Positions 5,568 to 25,494 of a DNA stretch of 25,494 nucleotides are shown in pieces. The position numbers were made by a program, and so were the translations under genes. The stretch covers positions 1 to 25,494 of IMG/VR virus record IMGVR_UViG_3300045988_104440. One strand, written 5' to 3'. How positions within the stretch are numbered: position 1 is the stretch's first letter; each line of letters starts with the position of its first letter. This DNA is from a virus (lineage: Duplodnaviria > Heunggongvirae > Uroviricota > Caudoviricetes). Below the pieces are notes generated by a model. It was not told the DNA's origin, did no database searches, and saw only the letters and a list, made by a program, of their open reading frames with translations.

Positions 5568-6758
5568 TTAATTGCTATTAACCGAAGTGACCAGACTTGC
5601 CAGGTATCTGGAAGTAATACGCTGGCGCAGGGTCAGGTTTTCGAGAGGAGGCACCGGGGTATAGTCGTAGTCGATATACAGTTTTCCGGCCTTGAGGGTT
5701 TCCGCATCGTTGGATTCTTCGCTGAACCAGCAGGTCGCATCCACGATATAGCCGTTTGTTTTCAGCTCACGGAATTTGGCATTGATGCCGTCAACGATGT
5801 CGCGAATCAGCGTTGCGGTGATGGGCTTGTCCACCGCCCACATGTGCGCCTCAGCCATCGTATCGGCCAGCACCTGCGCGGTGCGGGTGTAGTTTTCAAA
5901 GAGGAACAGCGGGTCATCAGAGCAGGTACGGTTACCCCAGAAGCGGAAACCGTCACGGCGAATCAGCGTTGTGACACCTGACTCGTTCAACAGGTCAGCA
6001 TCGGTGCCGGACTCCTGCAAATCCCAGAATACAGATGCGCTGATGCCGGTAACACCGTTCACCCCGACATTGGACAGCGTTTTATGCCAGCCCTGCTCCT
6101 GGTCGATTTTAGCGCGCAGGCCCAGTGCACGGGCAGTGGCATACGCGGTGGCGGTGGTACTGGTGACCGTATCCCATGCGAGGAAATCCGGCCAGATGAC
6201 CATCAGCTCACGCTGGCTGAAATTCTGGCGGTAGGCTTTCACCTCGGAAATAGTCTTACATCCCCATGCGCTGATATACCCGAAAGCACGCAGCTTCTGA
6301 CAGACTGATGCCAGTGCAACAGCCACCTCTTTGGTATCCAGTCCCGGCACGCCGAGAATACGCGGTTTAACACCGGTTACCGACTCCGCCGCCAGCAGGG
6401 CTTTCAGTCCGGTGTACTGACCGTTTTCGTCGGTGGTGCCGATGATATTGGAAACGGTCTGCGCGAGTTTCGTTTCTTCGTCGTCGCCGGTGCCGTCTTC
6501 CACACGTACGACAACGGTGACCGGTTTTGACTGGTCGGCGATGGCCTGCAACGATGCCGCCAGCGTGCCTTTTTTACCAGCCTTTGCAATTGCGCTCTGC
6601 ACATTGGTAATCAGCACCGGTTTATTGAGGGGGAAGGTTTCCGCATCTGCATCGCTGGCCGTGCAGACCATGCCGACAATGGCCGTGGATACGGTGGAAA
6701 TGACGCGGGTGCCGTCGTTAATCTCCAGCACCTGCACGCCGTGATGATAGTCACTCAT
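5568..6758 (-). CDS. FI: Contractile tail sheath protein FI (396 aa)
   Basis: First gene of the FI-FII-E-T-U-D operon; length equals P2 gpFI. Confidence 0.85.
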   Translation of the reverse strand: MSDYHHGVQVLEINDGTRVISTVSTAIVGMVCTASDADAETFPLNKPVLITNVQSAIAKAGKKGTLAASLQAIADQSKPVTVVVRVEDGTGDDEETKLAQTVSNIIGTTDENGQYTGLKALLAAESVTGVKPRILGVPGLDTKEVAVALASVCQKLRAFGYISAWGCKTISEVKAYRQNFSQRELMVIWPDFLAWDTVTSTTATAYATARALGLRAKIDQEQGWHKTLSNVGVNGVTGISASVFWDLQESGTDADLLNESGVTTLIRRDGFRFWGNRTCSDDPLFLFENYTRTAQVLADTMAEAHMWAVDKPITATLIRDIVDGINAKFRELKTNGYIVDATCWFSEESNDAETLKAGKLYIDYDYTPVPPLENLTLRQRITSRYLASLVTSVNSN

Positions 6759-6881
6759 CCGTTTAACTCCGTGGTTAATGGGTGCAACTATTTTCTGTTG
6801 TGCAGAGCATGAGACGCTATTTGACCTGGCTGGTCAGGGGATGAAACAACAGATAAAGAAAATGCGGGCAATTCGCCCGCC

Positions 6882-6899
6882 TGTCCTGATTTGTACACA
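6882..6899 (-). promoter_or_regulatory. Ogr-type late promoter activator site (TGT-N12-ACA) of the FI operon
   Basis: Exact TGT-cctgatttgtac-ACA dyad 124..141 bp upstream of the FI start codon. The P2 late-promoter consensus TGT-N12-ACA is centred near -55. Confidence 0.45.
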
Positions 6900-7130
6900 C
6901 TCATTTTCCGACTGACTATTTAGATAGCCGAAACGCTATCAAATCTGACAGTCTGCTTTGAGCGAGGAGCGGAAGTTCGTAATTGTTCTCACCGTTAAGG
7001 GTCTAGTACTAACATTACCGTATGTTTATCAACGGGGACTACATCAGGCTAAATTCAGTGTGTCACAACCATTAACAAGATTTTCTGTAGCAATCGATAA
7101 CTACTTAAGTTAAAAATAGAAAACTAATCG

Positions 7131-7162
7131 TGTAGCTATAAATCGCTACAATAGACTCGGAG
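7131..7162 (+). promoter_or_regulatory. Candidate promoter/operator and ribosome-binding site for the cargo operon
   Basis: Perfect 6-bp inverted repeat TGTAGC (7131..7136) / GCTACA (7145..7150) flanking a TATAAAT -10-like element (7137..7143). GGAG (7159..7162) lies 6 nt before the ATG at 7169. Confidence 0.3.
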
Positions 7163-7168
7163 TTTGCA

Positions 7169-8395
7169 ATGTCAGATCAGCGTTTTATAAGTAAGATTCA
7201 GGATACTAGGGTTGATTGTTGGTCAGCTTTAGTTGAATTTAATGTTAAAGACTATCTTGGGCTTGCAGAAAAAGCTTACGTTAATAGAGGTGGTATACGA
7301 CATCAACGCGAAGCTCTTAAAACCACAACAGCGAAACGCATTCGCACTAGGCTCGTCGAGGACTTGAGGCGAGGCGCGGTAATCCCTCCTCTGGTCATTG
7401 GTATAGTCGCTGACAATGACGATTGGCAGACAATTGAAGGTATCTCAGAGTCCGAGCAAGTAAAGCAACTCCTTAAAAAATATTATGAAGAATTGTCGAT
7501 TATTGATGGGATGCAACGCACCACAGCTCTTAAAGAAGCATTAGCTTTAGATGAAAACGTAGCCGATCATGTGATTAGGGTAGAAGCCTGGATTGCGAAA
7601 GGCACAGAGAGTTTAATATATCGAATGCTTGTTTTAAACACTGGGCAGGTACCATGGAACCTGAAACAACAACTAGAGGTTGTTTATGCTCCACTTGTGA
7701 AAACTATTAGCCAAAAAGTCAACTTTCGTAGGCTTCTCTCTGCATCGGATAGACGATGGCAAGGAGGGGAGTTTAAAACATACTCGTTGATTGAGTCTTA
7801 TATAGCTTTTGGATTGCGTCGAACTGAGGTCGATACTCAAGAGAGTCTAGCCGATGAGTTTTCAAGGCTAGATATCGCAGAAGCGCTCACCAATAAAAAA
7901 TATGACCATTATTTTTATCGTGTCGTGCAAATGTTAGTTAATTTCGATATTGCGCTATCGATATATAATGAAGTGCAGAATATCGATATTGCAGACCCTT
8001 CTGAGGGTTCCGATAGTCTAGAGGTAGGAATAAAAGCCAGAAAATTAGTAAGAGGCCGAAATATTTTTGATACTCAAGCAGCGCGAGTTGGTTTTATCGT
8101 TGCTTGTGCAGTCAGCATCCTTGGCAGAGTTGGCATGGACAAGGAAGAAGAAGTCAGTGAAGAGAGATGTGCCTTACTAGAGGAATCTTGTGCTGCTCTT
8201 GTTAAAAGGATTACCGCCTTAAATAGAGAAAATTTAGAAGAATTTTTATCGCTAGATGTTTTAGCTGAAAAATTGTCCCGGAGACCGAGTTCAGCAGTTG
8301 GTAGATGGGAGCGGTCATTCTTTGAGGCTGCGTTCCGAGTATTAGTAGAAGAAAACTTTAATATACCCAACATGGAGCCATGCTGGCGGGCATAA
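7169..8395 (+). CDS. Hypothetical protein (408 aa), candidate ParB/DndB-like (DGQHR-type) protein; cargo gene 1
   Basis: Complete ORF with a GGAG ribosome-binding site. HQRE (aa 44-47) followed about 65 aa later by IIDGMQRTTAL (7504..7518 encodes DGMQR), resembling the QR...DGQ(Q/H)R signature of ParB/Srx-fold DndB/DUF262-like proteins. AT-rich, on the strand opposite to the late genes. Confidence 0.6.
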   Translation: MSDQRFISKIQDTRVDCWSALVEFNVKDYLGLAEKAYVNRGGIRHQREALKTTTAKRIRTRLVEDLRRGAVIPPLVIGIVADNDDWQTIEGISESEQVKQLLKKYYEELSIIDGMQRTTALKEALALDENVADHVIRVEAWIAKGTESLIYRMLVLNTGQVPWNLKQQLEVVYAPLVKTISQKVNFRRLLSASDRRWQGGEFKTYSLIESYIAFGLRRTEVDTQESLADEFSRLDIAEALTNKKYDHYFYRVVQMLVNFDIALSIYNEVQNIDIADPSEGSDSLEVGIKARKLVRGRNIFDTQAARVGFIVACAVSILGRVGMDKEEEVSEERCALLEESCAALVKRITALNRENLEEFLSLDVLAEKLSRRPSSAVGRWERSFFEAAFRVLVEENFNIPNMEPCWRA

Positions 8396-8396
8396 T

Positions 8397-9491
8397 ATGT
8401 CTAGAAATAAAATAGAAATGTCGACGGACATTTTTCAAAAAATACATGATTCTGCATCTGCTCAGGACTCTACGTACATAGCCGATAATGAAAAAAGATG
8501 GCTTGCTCGTAAAGATAACGAGGATTTAAACCTTATGATTAATGCAGAGGTTAACGTTCTTATTTTGGGGGCGAAGACGTTCGCCGTCTCTATTAAGAAT
8601 GGTTCTGATAACTACTTCTGTTTTAGCGGTTTAGATATCCCCGAACAACTTCCCGCCAGTCTCACTGAGATTGAGCCCACGCCTGGCATCTTTTCATGCG
8701 TTGTGTTCACCGTCAATCTCCCAGCATTAGCTACAGCGGCTAAGGCTAGAGACATTTTAGAACAGCAATACCTGGGGCAGGAAGGTTACGTCGGGCATGA
8801 ACTTAACGAGATCGCTCCACTCTTTCCAAAACTATACTTTGTTAAGGCTAACGAAAATATAAGCACTACTTTTTTAAATAATTTAGAGCGTGTAGCTGGT
8901 GCCTATATTGCTGCAGGATACGTTAGCCACCCTTTAGAGGTTAATGATAATTTAAAGTTGCGACTACTGTCTCTATTTGAAGTTGGAGCAGAAACCATAC
9001 CGTTTCGTCTACCTCTGCAGGGTCTATTATCTTATAATTGGTCATCGTTATTTTTGGATCTTTATCGATGCTTAGAGCAGTTATATACCGCGCAAAAGTT
9101 GAAAAATTTAGTCACTAAACTCCCATACAAAGGTACTTTGGCAGATCTCGCATATTTACTGGAAGATGAATTGTCATGGAGACCAAAAGAGCAGGATGCA
9201 TTAGCTAGTATACTGGCATGTTCAACTGAAAACACACGTTCGAAAATTCTATCTGCATTCAAACTCAACGTGCCCGAGTTAACCGAGTACTCGCCAAGCA
9301 AGTGCGCAAGTAATATATATAAGCTGAGGAATTCTCATGTTCATTTTCGCCCAGCAATGAAAGCAGAAAATAAACCCACCGAACAGTGGAATGAAATTTT
9401 GATAGCGATGTGTGATGCCGTTGATGACGTTTATGAAGCTCTCGGTGCTGAATTCTTAATAGATAGGTCAAACTTAGAGTCGGTCAGGTAA
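8397..9491 (+). CDS. Hypothetical protein (364 aa), unknown family; cargo gene 2
   Basis: Complete ORF starting 1 nt after the stop of cargo gene 1 (TAA-a-ATG), implying translational coupling. No motif I can assign confidently; a C-terminal R-x4-H (LRNSHVH, 9324..9344) is noted. Confidence 0.55.
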   Translation: MSRNKIEMSTDIFQKIHDSASAQDSTYIADNEKRWLARKDNEDLNLMINAEVNVLILGAKTFAVSIKNGSDNYFCFSGLDIPEQLPASLTEIEPTPGIFSCVVFTVNLPALATAAKARDILEQQYLGQEGYVGHELNEIAPLFPKLYFVKANENISTTFLNNLERVAGAYIAAGYVSHPLEVNDNLKLRLLSLFEVGAETIPFRLPLQGLLSYNWSSLFLDLYRCLEQLYTAQKLKNLVTKLPYKGTLADLAYLLEDELSWRPKEQDALASILACSTENTRSKILSAFKLNVPELTEYSPSKCASNIYKLRNSHVHFRPAMKAENKPTEQWNEILIAMCDAVDDVYEALGAEFLIDRSNLESVR

Positions 9492-9602
9492 TATGCATGA
9501 TTAAAATTGTCATGCGTAACCTAAGCTTATAATTTGTCTATCATATTCATCCTAGATAGATGACTCTATGCTCATCCCCCAGATGAATATATTACAAACC
9601 TT

Positions 9603-9625
9603 AAAAAGCCGTCCTTTAGGACGGC
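9603..9625 (-). terminator. Rho-independent terminator between the convergent cargo operon and gene G
   Basis: Hairpin GCCGTCC-ttta-GGACGGC (9608..9625) preceded on the plus strand by AAAAA (9603..9607), which is a U-tract for minus-strand transcripts. Only a weak T-run follows on the plus strand. Confidence 0.5.
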
Positions 9626-9924
9626 TGTAAACTCTATATTAAACTGGCTCTTACTTTTGCGAACACTGACTTCCACTTTTTATACAATGAAGGTCGAACA
9701 ATAAGAAAAAATCTCCGCTTATATTAACCAAAAGCATCTATTTGTTATCCACGTAATATCTTGCGCGATATAAACATACCAGCAGGTTTCTTAGCATTGA
9801 TCTGCTCCCCATTGATTAAAACAGCGTGATGTTTGCTATGTCCGTTCTTGGCACAGAGCGGACTGTCAAATTAGGCTTTACTCTGTGCCATAGATATGTA
9901 AGCTCCCACCAGAGCTCATACAAC

Positions 9925-10452
9925 TTATTGCGGCATTTCCGGCCATTCAGGATTTGTAGGATCCACACGACTGACCAGAACGCTGTAGCGTTCCCAAGCC
10001 TCCAGCCGTGTGCGCTCCTCCTCTGTTGCCATGTTCAGCCTGACAGCACGCTCTAGCGGCAAAATCACGGATTCAGCATCTGCAAGAAGTCTGGCTTTCC
10101 TGTTTTCTGCCTGCAGTTGCAATTCCTCTGCCGTATAAATTCGTTTGATCACTGTGCCATCCTTAAACATCCAGTTCCCTGAAATGTCCGCCCGTCGGTT
10201 AGCAGTAATATCCGCCACTTCAACAACACTTAATCCATCCGGTCTGATAGCTGTCACATCCTTTTCCACATAGCGGATGATATTATCTTTGTCGTACGCT
10301 ATTTTTATCGTGTCATCAGCAAAATACTTTTGTTCTTCGTACCAGTTCTTACCATCTTCTGAAAAAAACCAGACAACATCAAAATTCTTTGTCAATTGAT
10401 ATTGTTCAACCGTTTTTGGATTACCCGCCGTAATATTTTTTAAATGCTGCAT
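9925..10452 (-). CDS. G: Tail fibre assembly protein G (175 aa)
   Basis: ORF directly downstream of H with a 3-nt gap; length equals P2 gpG. Confidence 0.75.
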
Positions 10453-21567: not shown

Positions 21568-23340
21568 ATGACCATCACCACAGACACCACTCTTTTGCAC
21601 GACCCGCGTCGTCAGGCGGCGCTGCTGTACTGGCAGGGGTTTTCCGTGCCGCAGATTGCCGCCATGTTGCAGATGAAACGCCCGACGGTGCAGAGCTGGA
21701 AACAGCGCGACGGCTGGGACAGCGTTGCCCCCATCAGCCGTGTCGAAATGAGTCTGGAAGCGCGGCTGACCCAGCTCATTATCAAACCGCAGAAAACCGG
21801 CGGTGACTTCAAGGAAATTGACCTGCTCGGACGCCAGATTGAACGACTGGCACGGGTAAACCGCTACAGCCAGACCGGCAACGAGGCAGACCTTAATCCG
21901 AACGTCGCTAACCGCAACAAAGGCGGGCGTCGCAAACCGAAAAAGAATTTTTTCAGCGACGAGGCTATCGAAAAGCTGGAGCAGATTTTCTTTGAGCAGT
22001 CTTTCGACTATCAGTTGCACTGGTATCGCGCCGGGCTTGAGCACCGCATCCGCGATATCCTGAAATCCCGCCAGATTGGCGCGACGTTTTATTTTTCCCG
22101 CGAGGCGCTGCTGCGCGCCCTGAAAACAGGTCATAACCAGATTTTTCTGTCGGCCAGTAAAACGCAGGCGTATGTGTTCCGCGAATACATCATCGCCTTT
22201 GCCCGTCTGGTTGACGTTGACCTGACCGGTGACCCGATTGTCCTGGGCAATAACGGCGCAAAACTGATTTTTCTCGGCACCAACTCCAACACCGCGCAGA
22301 GCCATAACGGCGACCTGTACGTCGACGAGATTTTCTGGATCCCGAATTTTCAGGTGCTGCGTAAGGTGGCATCAGGTATGGCCTCACAGAGTCACCTGCG
22401 ATCGACCTATTTCTCCACCCCGTCCACGCTGGCGCACGACGCCTACCCGTTCTGGTCGGGTGAACTGTTCAACCGGGGACGCGCCAGCGCCGCCGAACGC
22501 GTGGAAATCGACGTCAGTCATAACGCCCTTGCCGGTGGGCTTCTCTGTGCGGACGGCCAGTGGCGGCAGATTGTCACCATTGAGGACGCCCTGAAAGGCG
22601 GCTGCACGCTGTTCGACATTGAGCAGCTCAAACGCGAAAACAGCGCCGACGATTTTAAAAACCTGTTCATGTGTGAATTTGTTGACGACAAGGCATCGGT
22701 GTTCCCGTTCGAGGAGCTGCAACGCTGCATGGTCGACACGCTGGAAGAATGGGAAGACTATGCCCCCTTTGCCGCCAATCCGTTCGGCTCCCGCCCGGTA
22801 TGGATTGGTTACGACCCGTCACACCGTGGCGACAGCGCCGGATGCGTGGTGCTGGCACCGCCGGTGGTGGCCGGTGGCAAATTCAGGATCCTTGAGCGTC
22901 ACCAGTGGAAAGGTATGGACTTTGCCACTCAGGCGGAATCCATCCGCAAACTCACTGAAAAATACAACGTCGAATACATCGGTATTGATGCCACCGGCCT
23001 CGGTGTCGGCGTGTTCCAGCTCGTGCGCTCGTTCTATCCCGCCGCGCGCGATATCCGCTACACGCCGGAAATGAAAACCGCAATGGTGCTCAAGGCAAAA
23101 GACGTTATCCGCCGTGGCTGTCTGGAATATGACGTCAGCGCCACCGACATCACCAGCTCGTTTATGGCTATCCGCAAGACCATGACCAGCAGCGGACGCA
23201 GCGCCACCTATGAGGCCAGCCGCAGCGAGGAAGCCAGCCACGCCGACCTCGCCTGGGCGACCATGCACGCCCTGTTAAATGAGCCACTCACCGCCGGTAT
23301 CAGCACTCCGCTGACATCCACCATTCTGGAGTTTTACTGA
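21568..23340 (+). CDS. P: Terminase large (ATPase) subunit P (590 aa)
   Basis: The 600-aa ORF trimmed to the Met starting MTITTDTT, which has GAGG 5 nt upstream, gives 590 aa, equal to P2 gpP. Divergent from O and followed by Q. Confidence 0.85.
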   Translation: MTITTDTTLLHDPRRQAALLYWQGFSVPQIAAMLQMKRPTVQSWKQRDGWDSVAPISRVEMSLEARLTQLIIKPQKTGGDFKEIDLLGRQIERLARVNRYSQTGNEADLNPNVANRNKGGRRKPKKNFFSDEAIEKLEQIFFEQSFDYQLHWYRAGLEHRIRDILKSRQIGATFYFSREALLRALKTGHNQIFLSASKTQAYVFREYIIAFARLVDVDLTGDPIVLGNNGAKLIFLGTNSNTAQSHNGDLYVDEIFWIPNFQVLRKVASGMASQSHLRSTYFSTPSTLAHDAYPFWSGELFNRGRASAAERVEIDVSHNALAGGLLCADGQWRQIVTIEDALKGGCTLFDIEQLKRENSADDFKNLFMCEFVDDKASVFPFEELQRCMVDTLEEWEDYAPFAANPFGSRPVWIGYDPSHRGDSAGCVVLAPPVVAGGKFRILERHQWKGMDFATQAESIRKLTEKYNVEYIGIDATGLGVGVFQLVRSFYPAARDIRYTPEMKTAMVLKAKDVIRRGCLEYDVSATDITSSFMAIRKTMTSSGRSATYEASRSEEASHADLAWATMHALLNEPLTAGISTPLTSTILEFY

Positions 23341-24374
23341 TGAGCAAGAAAAAAGGGAAAACACCGCGACCAGCGGCAAAAACAATGACCGCCAGCGCCC
23401 CGAAAATGGAGGCATTCACCTTTGGTGAGCCGGTGCCGGTACTCGATCGCCGTGACATTCTGGATTACGTCGAGTGCATCAGTAACGGCAGATGGTATGA
23501 GCCACCGGTCAGCTTTACCGGTCTGGCAAAAAGCCTGCGTGCTGCCGTGCATCACAGCTCCCCGATTTACGTCAAACGTAATATTCTGGCCTCGACATTT
23601 ATCCCGCATCCGTGGCTTTCCCAGCAGGATTTCAGCCGCTTTGTGCTGGATTTTCTGGTGTTCGGTAATGCGTTTCTGGAAAAGCGTTACAGCACCACCG
23701 GTAAGGTCATCAGACTGGAAACCTCACCGGCAAAATATACCCGCCGTGGTGTGGAAGAAGATATTTACTGGTGGGTGCCGTCCTTCAACGAGCCAACACC
23801 TTTCACGCCCGGCTCCGTGTTTCACCTGCTGGAGCCGGATATCAATCAGGAGCTGTACGGCCTGCCGGAATATCTCAGCGCCCTTAACTCTGCCTGGCTG
23901 AATGAATCAGCCACGCTGTTCCGCCGCAAGTATTACGAAAACGGCGCACATGCCGGATACATCATGTACGTCACCGATGCCGTGCAGGATCGCAACGATA
24001 TCGAAATGCTCCGCGAAAACATGGTGAAGTCGAAAGGCCGCAACAACTTTAAAAACCTGTTTCTCTATGCCCCACAGGGGAAAGCCGACGGCATTAAAAT
24101 TATCCCGCTCAGTGAAGTGGCAACGAAGGACGATTTTTTTAATATCAAAAAAGCCAGCGCCGCTGACCTGCTGGACGCGCACCGCATCCCCTTTCAGTTG
24201 ATGGGCGGCAAGCCGGAGAACGTCGGGTCGCTGGGCGATATTGAGAAAGTGGCAAAGGTCTTTGTCCGCAATGAGCTTATCCCGCTACAGGACAGGATCC
24301 GCGAGATAAACGGCTGGCTCGGCCAGGAAGTCATCCGCTTTAAAAACTACTCACTGGACACTGACAACGGCTGA
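23340..24374 (+). CDS. Q: Portal protein Q (344 aa)
   Basis: Its start overlaps the P stop (TGATG); length equals P2 gpQ. It is the last gene before cos. Confidence 0.85.
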   Translation: MSKKKGKTPRPAAKTMTASAPKMEAFTFGEPVPVLDRRDILDYVECISNGRWYEPPVSFTGLAKSLRAAVHHSSPIYVKRNILASTFIPHPWLSQQDFSRFVLDFLVFGNAFLEKRYSTTGKVIRLETSPAKYTRRGVEEDIYWWVPSFNEPTPFTPGSVFHLLEPDINQELYGLPEYLSALNSAWLNESATLFRRKYYENGAHAGYIMYVTDAVQDRNDIEMLRENMVKSKGRNNFKNLFLYAPQGKADGIKIIPLSEVATKDDFFNIKKASAADLLDAHRIPFQLMGGKPENVGSLGDIEKVAKVFVRNELIPLQDRIREINGWLGQEVIRFKNYSLDTDNG

Positions 24375-24893: not shown

Positions 24894-25494
24894 ATGGAAC
24901 TTAAATTAAAGGATATAACCAGCTATAAGAAAGATAGCTTCACAACTCTTAATCTCTCAAAAAAAATCAATATACTTTATGGTCACAACGGTTGTGGAAA
25001 ATCAACCATATCTAATTATTTCTATAATCCAAATAACACGGACTACAAAGAATGCGAATGTCCTTTCATAGATACTTTTCGCCTATTGGTTTATAATACT
25101 AAGTTTATTGAGGATAATTTTTATAATGCAAAAGAGCAAAAAGGAGTATTCACTTTAAGTAAGGAAAATGCTGACATTGAAAAAGAATTATTGGAAAAAG
25201 AAGCTATAAGACAAGACCTACTTACAAAATACAAAGATAAAAAAAACGTTATTGAGCGTTTAATTAACGATAAAAACAATAAAGAAAATGAATATATTGA
25301 TTTAATATGGAATAAAGCAGAACCTTTTAGATCATCTGACTTAAAGAACTTGATGAAAGGTCAGTTAGGAAGCAAGAGATCATTTTATGAGCAAGTTAAA
25401 AAAGCCCCTCAAACCACTGACGTTAACATCGAGTCACTTGCTCAAGAATATAGTATTCTTTTAAAGAATAAAGATAAATTCACTGCAGATCGGA
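24894..25494 (+). CDS. P-loop ATPase (ABC/SMC-like), 5' part only; runs off the window
   Basis: ATG at 24894 with GAGG 6 nt upstream and an open frame to the window edge (200 codons). Walker A motif GHNGCGKST (24981..25007) is followed by a long charged, coiled-coil-like region. AT-rich. This ORF is not in the supplied track because it has no stop inside the window. Confidence 0.55.
   Translation, partial: MELKLKDITSYKKDSFTTLNLSKKINILYGHNGCGKSTISNYFYNPNNTDYKECECPFIDTFRLLVYNTKFIEDNFYNAKEQKGVFTLSKENADIEKELLEKEAIRQDLLTKYKDKKNVIERLINDKNNKENEYIDLIWNKAEPFRSSDLKNLMKGQLGSKRSFYEQVKKAPQTTDVNIESLAQEYSILLKNKDKFTADR

What the first reader, a model, noticed from the sequence alone, without database searches (positions are those of the whole stretch)
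7169..8395. Cargo protein 1 carries a ParB/DndB-like QR...DGMQR signature
The N-terminal third contains HQRE followed about 65 residues later by IIDGMQRTTAL (DGMQR encoded at 7504..7518). This spacing and pattern resemble the ParB/sulfiredoxin-fold signature of DndB/DGQHR and DUF262 proteins, which are frequent in defence islands as DNA-modification sensors or NTP-dependent nuclease modules. Methionine replaces the usual Q/H in the motif. The C-terminal 280 residues are unassigned.
Basis: partly seen in the sequence, partly recalled or inferred. Interest (0 to 1): 0.7.

Follow-up and report, generated by a model that had tools for sequence, protein, structure and literature searches.

The report
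Dazbog defence pair in P2 prophage

Summary
Q46, R47 and D-G-M-Q-R are invariant in 48 homologues.

The protein matches the PADLOC DzbA profile over its full length (E 2.8e-50). Pfam GmrSD_N/DUF262, DndB and DGQHR hits are consistent but below threshold. A confident AF2 model finds ParB/sulfiredoxin-fold proteins and BrxU first.

The methionine is the family-wide residue at the variable x of DGxQR, not an anomaly.

The translationally coupled downstream gene (8397-9491) is a very divergent DzbB. Its invariant core is an RNxxxH motif, which suggests a HEPN-type RNase.

The roughly 2.8-kb, low-GC cassette lies between tail sheath FI and tail-fibre assembly G, the P2 fun hotspot. The Peduovirus backbone is 98% identical to E. 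coli prophages. The cassette is absent from 5,426 complete E. coli genomes and 50,697 phage records.

Proposed mechanism (inferred): DzbA senses modified phage DNA through an NTP switch, DzbB executes abortive infection.

Interest is modest.

The parts
6951..7168 (+). Upstream part of the mobile cassette, presumed to hold the promoter and operator. It contains the inverted repeat TGTAGC-N8-GCTACA at 7131-7150 around a TATAAA, and GGAG at 7159-7162, 6 nt before the ATG.
   Evidence: DNA similarity to the same cassette in other contexts starts here: Klebsiella lambdoid prophages from 6976, Enterobacter cancerogenus from 7052 with a weaker piece at 6951-7038. Sequence read; inverted repeat listed. 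No consensus sigma-70 site on the + strand was called, so the promoter is inferred, not shown.
7169..8395 (+). dzbA-like gene (408 aa). N-terminal ParB/Srx-fold DUF262-type domain (about residues 1-180), followed by a DzbA-specific helical C-terminal region.
7301..7312 (+). HQRE; Q46 and R47 form the first (QR) motif of DUF262/DGQHR-type domains.
   Evidence: Q46 and R47 invariant.
7505..7519 (+). DGMQR, the DGxQR phosphate-binding motif. It follows strand 110-113, and helix 115-127 begins within it.
   Evidence: Secondary structure. Role of DGxQR in contacting the beta and gamma phosphates taken from PMC12065111.
7619..7657 (+). YRMLVLNTGQVPW, the third invariant block of the N-terminal domain.
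8397..9491 (+). dzbB-like gene (364 aa). The ATG lies one base after the dzbA TAA. Fast-diverging alpha/beta N-terminal half and a helical C-terminal half with a HEPN-type motif.
   Evidence: Gene junction. PADLOC DzbB E 1.2e-3, residues 219-318 only; 30 of 37 family members hit DzbB, best 7.5e-8. AF2 pLDDT 89.3. 795 cluster representatives in the family.
9060..9086 (+). LYRCLEQLY block of DzbB (Y223 and E227 invariant in 120 sequences).
9327..9344 (+). RNSHVH, an Rx4H (HEPN-type) motif. R311 and H316 are invariant and N312 is 96% conserved in 120 sequences, including the B. cereus DzbB.
9492..9778 (.). Downstream tail of the cassette, with an 8-bp GC-rich hairpin AGCCGTCC-TTTA-GGACGGCT at 9607-9626.
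   Evidence: 86% DNA identity to the Enterobacter locus continues to 9778. Sequence. No ORF of note and no Rfam match.
5568..6758 (-). Left flank: P2 tail sheath gene FI.
   Evidence: Pfam Phage_sheath_1 E 9.7e-34.
9925..10452 (-). Right flank: P2 tail-fibre assembly gene G.
   Evidence: Pfam Caudo_TAP E 1.5e-33.

Best explanation
ORF 7169-8395 is a DzbA. It is the ParB/sulfiredoxin-fold (DUF262-type) nucleotide-binding protein of a Dazbog-family two-gene anti-phage cassette. A P2-like (Peduovirus) prophage carries the cassette as cargo in its FI/G (fun) hotspot, transcribed opposite to the tail genes.

Proposed working, with shown and inferred steps marked:
(a) Shown: family assignment, fold, invariant QR / DGMQR / LNTGQxP motifs, and obligatory pairing with the downstream gene.
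(b) Inferred from GmrSD, BrxU and SspE and from published Dazbog genetics: DzbA binds NTP through DGxQR, scans DNA, and switches state on DNA that carries a phage-type modification.
(c) Inferred from the invariant RNxxxH motif and weak HEPN similarities: the switch releases the DzbB C-terminal HEPN-like RNase, which arrests the cell (abortive infection) and so protects the lysogen population from a superinfecting phage.
For: Identity of A:
- PADLOC DzbA E 2.8e-50 over the full length.
- BLASTP to a B. cereus DzbA (itself PADLOC 5.3e-120) gives 23% identity over residues 51-406, E 5e-20.
- DGMQR is shared with that protein.
- GmrSD_N hits in 45 of 48 homologues.

Pairing:
- One-base gap between the genes.
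- An A+B pair is found in every context examined: Klebsiella lambdoid prophages, Enterobacter, Metapseudomonas and Brevundimonas chromosomes, plasmids and IMG/VR contigs.

B as a DzbB with a HEPN core:
- 30 of 37 members hit PADLOC DzbB.
- R311 and H316 are invariant and N312 is 96% conserved in 120 sequences, including the B. cereus DzbB (PADLOC 3.8e-48).
- The recurrent weak Pfam hits are HEPN families: HEPN_Apea in 21 of 120 members (best 3.5e-4), HEPN_RiboL-PSP in 5, HEPN_MAE_28990 in 1, pEK499_p136 in 1.
- NCBIfam HepT_toxin E 0.017 for the B. cereus DzbB.
- Two members hit Cas13a weakly.

Defence role:
- The slot is the fun locus, noted as a second P2 defence hotspot (PMC9519451).
- Other E. 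coli Peduoviruses hold RES, HNH, FRG or HAD+NUDIX genes in the same slot.
- Cassette GC is about 0.40 against about 0.55 for the phage genes.
- Published Dazbog work reports abortive infection triggered by the phage SPR cytosine methylase, and escape mutants that lose methylation.
Against: - Pfam, NCBIfam DUF262, DndB and DGQHR scores are all below the curated cut-offs.
- The DzbB assignment is weak for this protein itself: E 1.2e-3 over 100 residues. hhalign against B. cereus-type DzbB gives only 28% probability, E 6e-4, C-terminal 111 columns.
- The Millman et al. preprint reports that a dzbB deletion could not be transformed, 'possibly due to toxicity'. That fits DzbA being toxic on its own better than DzbB being the sole effector.
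- E. coli DNA is already Dam- and Dcm-methylated (general knowledge), so the trigger here cannot be methylation as such.
- No experiment exists for this clade.
Confidence: 0.75

Rival explanations
1. Same family, opposite wiring. DzbA is both sensor and toxic effector, for example as a DNA-clamping or nicking ParB-like NTPase. DzbB is its restraint or regulator, like an antitoxin, and its RNxxxH motif serves RNA or nucleotide binding or a secondary activity.
Against: DzbA has no recognisable nuclease domain: no DUF1524/HNH and nothing beyond residue ~176 in Pfam. The most conserved residues of DzbB are exactly a catalytic-type HEPN dyad, which is unusual for a mere inhibitor. The failed transformation is a single negative remark in a figure legend.
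Confidence: 0.2
2. A two-protein Type IV restriction system. DzbA recognises modified DNA and the complex cuts that DNA directly, as GmrSD and BrxU do. The reported toxicity with a phage methylase would then simply be self-restriction of the newly methylated host chromosome rather than programmed abortive infection.
Against: There is no DUF1524/HNH or other DNase domain in either protein. The only catalytic-looking motif is HEPN-type, and HEPN domains are known as RNases (general knowledge). Culture collapse or arrest at high MOI was reported.
Confidence: 0.1
3. A DndB-like regulator, or a ParB-type partition or plasmid-maintenance protein of the prophage, not a defence gene.
For: Weak DndB and DGQHR hits. 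P2-like phages often carry partition modules at their other hotspot.
Against: There are no dnd or ssp genes, no ParA and no HTH domain nearby. The DzbA profile beats DndB by about 150 bits. The gene always travels with dzbB as a two-gene unit into unrelated chromosomal and prophage sites.
Confidence: 0.03

Closest known systems
Dazbog (DzbA/DzbB; Millman et al. 2022; Stokar-Avihail et al. 2022/2023)
   Same: Two-gene operon. The first gene is a full-length DzbA match with DGMQR. The second gene has the same length and shares the LYRxxE...RNxxxH core with the B. cereus DzbB.
   Different: Only 23% identity to the B. cereus DzbA. DzbB is barely recognised by the PADLOC profile (16 bits, C-terminal 100 residues), and its N-terminal half is not detectably related to the B. 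cereus type. The host is a Dam+/Dcm+ enterobacterium and the carrier is a Peduovirus. Automated tools that need both genes would probably not call it (inference).
GmrSD / BrxU / SspE (DUF262 + DUF1524 Type IV restriction and phosphorothioate-sensing enzymes)
   Different: No DUF1524/HNH nuclease domain. The helical C-terminus is unrelated. The effector is presumably supplied in trans by DzbB.
DndB / DGQHR-domain proteins
   Same: QR ... DGxxR pattern and spacing. Weak profile hits (Pfam DndB 2e-3, TIGR03187 0.031).
   Different: Scores are far below the cut-offs, there is no dnd operon, and the motif is DGMQR rather than DGQHR.
Menshen NsnA and PD-T4-2 (other DUF262 defence proteins without DUF1524)
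   Same: A DUF262-type sensor combined with a separate effector gene.
   Different: No NsnB ABC ATPase or NsnC neighbour. No PADLOC hit to those models at E <= 0.1.
P2 fun(Z) and other cargo of the Peduovirus FI/G hotspot
   Same: Same insertion slot between tail sheath FI and tail-fibre assembly G, holding non-phage, low-GC cargo.
   Different: Different genes. This cassette is absent from 5,426 complete E. coli genomes and 50,697 phage records.
HEPN RNase toxins (HepT, RnlA/LsoA, Apea-like HEPN, Cas13 HEPN)
   Different: No hit reaches a curated threshold. DzbB has an extra ~200-residue N-terminal domain of unknown fold family. RNase activity is untested.

Membership tests
Dazbog | First gene matches the DzbA profile over its full length | tested here: met
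   PADLOC PDLC03835 E 2.8e-50, 169.8 bits, residues 6-407 against profile positions 4-383 of 393.
Dazbog | DzbA contains a DUF262/ParB-type domain with the DGxQR motif | tested here: met
Dazbog | Adjacent second gene is a DzbB | tested here: inconclusive
   The window protein scores E 1.2e-3 over residues 219-318 only. 30 of 37 family members hit DzbB, best 7.5e-8. hhalign against B. cereus-type DzbB gives probability 28%, E 6e-4. A broad family HMM against the B. cereus type gives 18.7-25.4 bits, C-terminal only. Y223, E227, R311 and H316 are shared and invariant. Homology of the C-terminal core is likely; the N-terminal half is undetermined.
Dazbog | Conserved two-gene operon that moves as a unit | tested here: met
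Dazbog | Confers phage resistance, and abortive infection is triggered by phage DNA methylase activity | not testable with these tools
   Known only for the B. mycoides system.
Pfam GmrSD_N (DUF262, PF03235) | Score at or above the gathering threshold (33.2 bits) | tested here: not met
   22.1 bits, E 1.8e-4. This is a divergent relative, not a curated member.
GmrSD/BrxU Type IV restriction enzymes | C-terminal DUF1524/HNH nuclease domain fused to DUF262 | tested here: not met
   No such Pfam hit at E <= 0.1. The C-terminus is helical with no nuclease match.
DndB / DGQHR | Profile score above the cut-off, and a dnd gene neighbourhood | tested here: not met
   PF14072 scores 17.7 bits against a cut-off of 29.1; TIGR03187 scores 14 against 58.85. 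The neighbours are phage tail genes.
ParB/sulfiredoxin fold | Predicted structure superposes on ParB-N/Srx domains, with the GxxR-type loop following a beta strand | tested here: met
HEPN superfamily (for the partner DzbB) | Rx4-6H motif conserved in a helical domain | tested here: met
   R311-N-S-H-V-H316. R and H are invariant in 120 sequences with mean column identity 19%.
HEPN superfamily (for the partner DzbB) | Significant profile or fold match to a HEPN family | tested here: inconclusive
Menshen | NsnB ABC-ATPase and NsnC effector genes downstream of the DUF262 gene | tested here: not met
   Only one downstream gene, with no ATPase motif or hit.

The most novel reading that the evidence does not exclude
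DzbB is a HEPN-type RNase. Dazbog would then be a system in which a ParB-like NTP switch reads a DNA modification and converts it into RNA degradation. This would be a first mechanistic handle on a system whose effector is listed as unknown in the papers I could search. In addition, Peduoviruses have captured Dazbog-type pairs independently in at least two different slots: FI/G here, and S/V in IMG/VR contigs L024 and L032. The enterobacterial clade must discriminate phage modifications from host Dam and Dcm methylation, which implies a different trigger from the Bacillus system.
Probability: 0.4. Interest if true: 0.55.

Novelty: new member of a known kind. Interest (0 to 1): 0.33.

Why it matters
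The finding adds little conceptually. A DUF262-type protein in a prophage defence hotspot is expected, and the system (Dazbog) is already named.

Its value is practical:
- It is a compact cassette of about 2.8 kb in an E. coli-type phage, so it is readily testable in E. coli.
- Automated annotation calls both proteins hypothetical, and defence finders that need both genes may miss it.
- It points to the invariant RNxxxH of DzbB as the residue pair to mutate in order to learn how Dazbog kills or arrests cells.
- It shows that the P2 fun-locus hotspot draws on cargo circulating among Enterobacter, Klebsiella and Pantoea chromosomes and lambdoid prophages.

Tried and rejected
- Sequence search of PDB chains with profiles of both families and with the N-terminal domain alone: nothing meaningful.
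- Foldseek of the DzbB model against the PDB: no hit with E <= 0.001.
- The afdb50 library was not available.
- Rfam scan of 6600-10100 at E <= 1: no RNA family. Small-ORF scan of the cassette flanks: nothing conserved or convincing.
- The consensus promoter scan found no + strand site upstream of dzbA, and the number of sites was no higher than in shuffles.
- blastn (near and distant) of the cassette against complete E. coli genomes and tblastn against phage records: only the phage flanks match.
- Homologue search seeded with the B. cereus DzbB gave only 3 sequences, which made the profile-profile test weak.
- Considered and rejected: GmrSD-type single-chain restriction enzyme (no DUF1524), DndB (no dnd genes, weak score), Menshen and PD-T4-2 (no partners, no profile hits), ParB partition protein (no ParA or HTH).
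- A domain swap in the DzbB N-terminus was considered but cannot be claimed. The matched positions are co-linear (residue 219 to profile position 208), so simple divergence is equally possible.

Full report
**1. Observation.**
ORF 7169-8395 on the + strand is a 408-aa ATG-initiated reading frame. HQRE is residues 45-48 (nt 7301-7312). IIDGMQRTTAL starts at residue 111, with DGMQR at 113-117, encoded at nt 7505-7519.

The search returned more than 2,028 homologues. In 48 of them, spanning 50-93% identity, Q46, R47 and I111-T118 are invariant. When a 23%-identical Bacillus cereus protein, a Pantoea plasmid protein and a Lactiplantibacillus protein are added, Q46, R47, D113, G114, Q116 and R117 remain invariant. 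So do Y151, M153, L156, N157, G159, Q160 and P162 of a third block, YRMLVLNTGQVPW. The pattern is therefore real and under selection.

**2. What the protein is.**
- Pfam gives only sub-threshold hits: GmrSD_N/DUF262 at 22.1 bits against a cut-off of 33.2, and DndB at 17.7 against 29.1. NCBIfam gives a faint DGQHR hit.
- GmrSD_N recurs in 45 of 48 homologues.
- The PADLOC library gives a full-length match to DzbA: E 2.8e-50, residues 6-407 on profile positions 4-383 of 393.
- A B. cereus plasmid protein that scores 5.3e-120 on the same profile aligns with the window protein over residues 51-406 (BLASTP E 5e-20) and has the same DGMQR.
- An AF2 model built on the 48-sequence alignment is confident (pLDDT 84.6, pTM 0.83).
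- In the model, DGMQR follows strand 110-113 and helix 115-127 begins within it. This is the usual position of the phosphate-binding GxxR loop of this fold.

The literature describes DzbA as the DUF262 protein of the two-gene Dazbog system. It writes the DUF262 motif as DGxQR, contacting the beta and gamma phosphates of the nucleotide (PMC12065111). The methionine therefore occupies the variable position and is a DzbA family trait, not an anomaly.

The C-terminal ~230 residues are helical and conserved within the family. They have no convincing match outside it. A ParB-associated DNA-binding role like that proposed for NsnA and DndB is possible but untested.

**3. The partner gene.**
The dzbA stop (TAA, 8393-8395) is followed after one base by the ATG of a 364-aa ORF, 8397-9491. 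It has no Pfam or NCBIfam family. Its only PADLOC hit is a weak C-terminal match to DzbB (E 1.2e-3, residues 219-318).

Thirty of 37 homologues hit DzbB, best 7.5e-8. A profile of the family finds 795 cluster representatives in 1.84 billion proteins.

An alignment of 120 members was built, including the B. cereus DzbB (PADLOC 3.8e-48). Only Y223, E227, R311 and H316 are invariant, and N312 is 96% conserved. The motif R-N-S-H-V-H (nt 9327-9344) has the Rx4H form of HEPN ribonucleases.

Independent weak signals point the same way:
- HEPN_Apea in 21 of 120 members (best 3.5e-4), with HEPN_RiboL-PSP, HEPN_MAE_28990 and HEPN pEK499_p136 also appearing.
- HepT_toxin for the B. cereus DzbB (E 0.017).
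- Cas13a for two members.

Homology to the B. cereus-type DzbB is detectable only for the C-terminal ~110 residues (hhalign probability 28%, E 6e-4; 18.7-25.4 bits). The N-terminal half also diverges faster within the family: 46% mean identity against 55% for the C-terminal half. DzbA is evenly conserved, 61% in each half.

**4. Context.**
The flanks are P2 genes: tail sheath FI (5568-6758, -), tube FII, tape measure, tail-fibre assembly G (9925-10452, -) and fibre H. The window's own record is a 33.5-kb metagenomic contig with a complete P2 late-gene order.

The backbone right of the cassette is 97.5-98% identical to E. coli Peduovirus phages and prophages.

The cassette lies where P2 has fun(Z). 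Vassallo et al. noted this as a second defence-enriched locus of P2-like phages (PMC9519451). Other E. coli Peduoviruses carry FRG-domain, RES, HNH or HAD+NUDIX genes at the same place.

The cargo is transcribed opposite to the tail genes and has GC of about 0.40 against about 0.55 for the phage genes.

At the DNA level the transferable unit runs from about 6951/7052 to 9778. It is 86% identical to an Enterobacter cancerogenus chromosome, and 84% identical over 6976-9471 to Klebsiella lambdoid prophages.

The same A+B pair occurs in several settings:
- two different Klebsiella lambdoid-prophage slots;
- two different Enterobacter chromosomal sites that carry an identical DzbA;
- a Metapseudomonas chromosome;
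- next to thiC in Brevundimonas;
- on plasmids.

The cassette has no blastn match, even in distant mode, in 5,426 complete E. coli genomes. DzbA has no tblastn match in 50,697 phage records.

A scan of IMG/VR found 16 viral contigs with 34-55% identical relatives. Two of them, L024 and L032, are P2-like genomes. In these a distant pair (DzbA 4.7e-55, DzbB 2e-9) sits between S and V, co-oriented with the late genes. This is an independent capture at another slot.

**5. How it most likely works.**
Shown: family, fold, motifs, obligatory pairing, hotspot location.

Taken from the literature:
- The Dazbog of B. mycoides protects by abortive infection.
- It becomes toxic when the SPR cytosine methylase is expressed, and escape phages lose methylation.
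- Loss of the DUF262 gene abolishes defence.
- In GmrSD, BrxU and SspE the DUF262 domain senses modified DNA and uses NTP hydrolysis to license a nuclease.

Inferred: DzbA is the NTP-dependent sensor of a phage DNA modification, and the HEPN-like C-terminal domain of DzbB is the effector that arrests the cell.

The main counter-evidence is a remark in the Millman et al. preprint that a dzbB deletion could not be transformed, 'possibly due to toxicity'. This favours a wiring in which DzbA is itself harmful and DzbB restrains it. I keep that as the chief rival (about 0.2).

A direct Type IV restriction reading is less likely. Neither protein has a DNase domain.

An unresolved point concerns the trigger. 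An E. coli-type host is Dam- and Dcm-methylated (general knowledge), so this clade must respond to something other than ordinary methylation.

**6. Comparison and novelty.**
The protein works like, and is a member of, the DzbA family. It is not a curated member of Pfam DUF262. It is not a GmrSD (no DUF1524), not a DndB and not a Menshen NsnA.

The system is a divergent, prophage-borne Dazbog, that is, a new member of a known kind. The possibly new elements are:
- the HEPN-type motif as the conserved core of DzbB, which I found in no paper of the searchable library;
- the recurrent, independent capture of Dazbog pairs by Peduoviruses.

Overall interest is modest (0.33). The most novel reading not excluded is DzbB as a HEPN RNase driven by a ParB-like modification sensor (probability about 0.4, interest about 0.55 if true).

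Noticed in passing
window 24894-25494 (+), runs off the window end: Just past the portal gene Q (23340-24374), in the other P2 hotspot (the old/tin slot), an ORF starts MELKLKDITSYKK... and has a Walker A motif GHNGCGKST. It matches the PADLOC candidate defence ATPase PDC-S06 (E 5.9e-57 over the first 195 of 727 profile positions). The phage therefore carries candidate defence cargo in both hotspots.
   Followed up: partly
L024 5980-8267 and L032 (IMG/VR P2-like contigs of 30.5 and 31.6 kb): A distant Dazbog pair (DzbA 39% and DzbB 27% identical to the window's; PADLOC 4.7e-55 and 2e-9) lies between tail genes S and V on the same strand as the late operon. This is a different Peduovirus slot from the window's and implies independent capture.
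   Followed up: partly
L011 (B. cereus plasmid NZ_CP053952.1) 1-1374 and 3869-6258: The B. cereus Dazbog pair, which scores strongly on the PADLOC DzbA and DzbB profiles, lies about 2.5 kb from a dcm cytosine-5 methyltransferase and an NgoPII-family restriction endonuclease. This is notable because Dazbog is reported to be triggered by a phage m5C methylase. It must tolerate the host's own m5C pattern.
   Followed up: no
window 8397 versus 8535 (start of the partner gene): The gene call on the source contig starts the second gene 46 codons later, giving 318 aa (L001 8599-9555). The N-terminal residues F13 and R34 are conserved in the family, and the ATG at 8397 abuts the dzbA stop, so the 364-aa form is preferred. 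Homologous loci are also called inconsistently, at 361, 373 or 377 aa.
   Followed up: partly
window 7131-7150: Inverted repeat TGTAGC-TATAAATC-GCTACA, 19-38 nt upstream of the dzbA ATG, enclosing a TATAAA. It could be an operator over the -10 region. It lies inside the DNA shared with the Enterobacter and Klebsiella copies of the cassette.
   Followed up: no
L006 7232-8828 (Brevundimonas chromosome): In one Brevundimonas genome the dzbB-like gene is cut to 264 aa and followed directly by a DDE transposase. A sister contig has the intact 357-aa gene. This is an example of inactivation of the partner gene with dzbA left intact.
   Followed up: no
window 6864-6880 and 9607-9626: GC-rich hairpins at both edges of the cargo. 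The first is GCGGGCGAATTGCCCGC followed by a T-rich tail (ATTTTCTTTA) on the - strand, about 110 bp upstream of the FI start codon on the late-gene (-) strand, outside the DNA shared with other cassette copies. The second is AGCCGTCC-TTTA-GGACGGCT inside the cassette tail. They probably insulate cargo and late-operon transcription.
   Followed up: no
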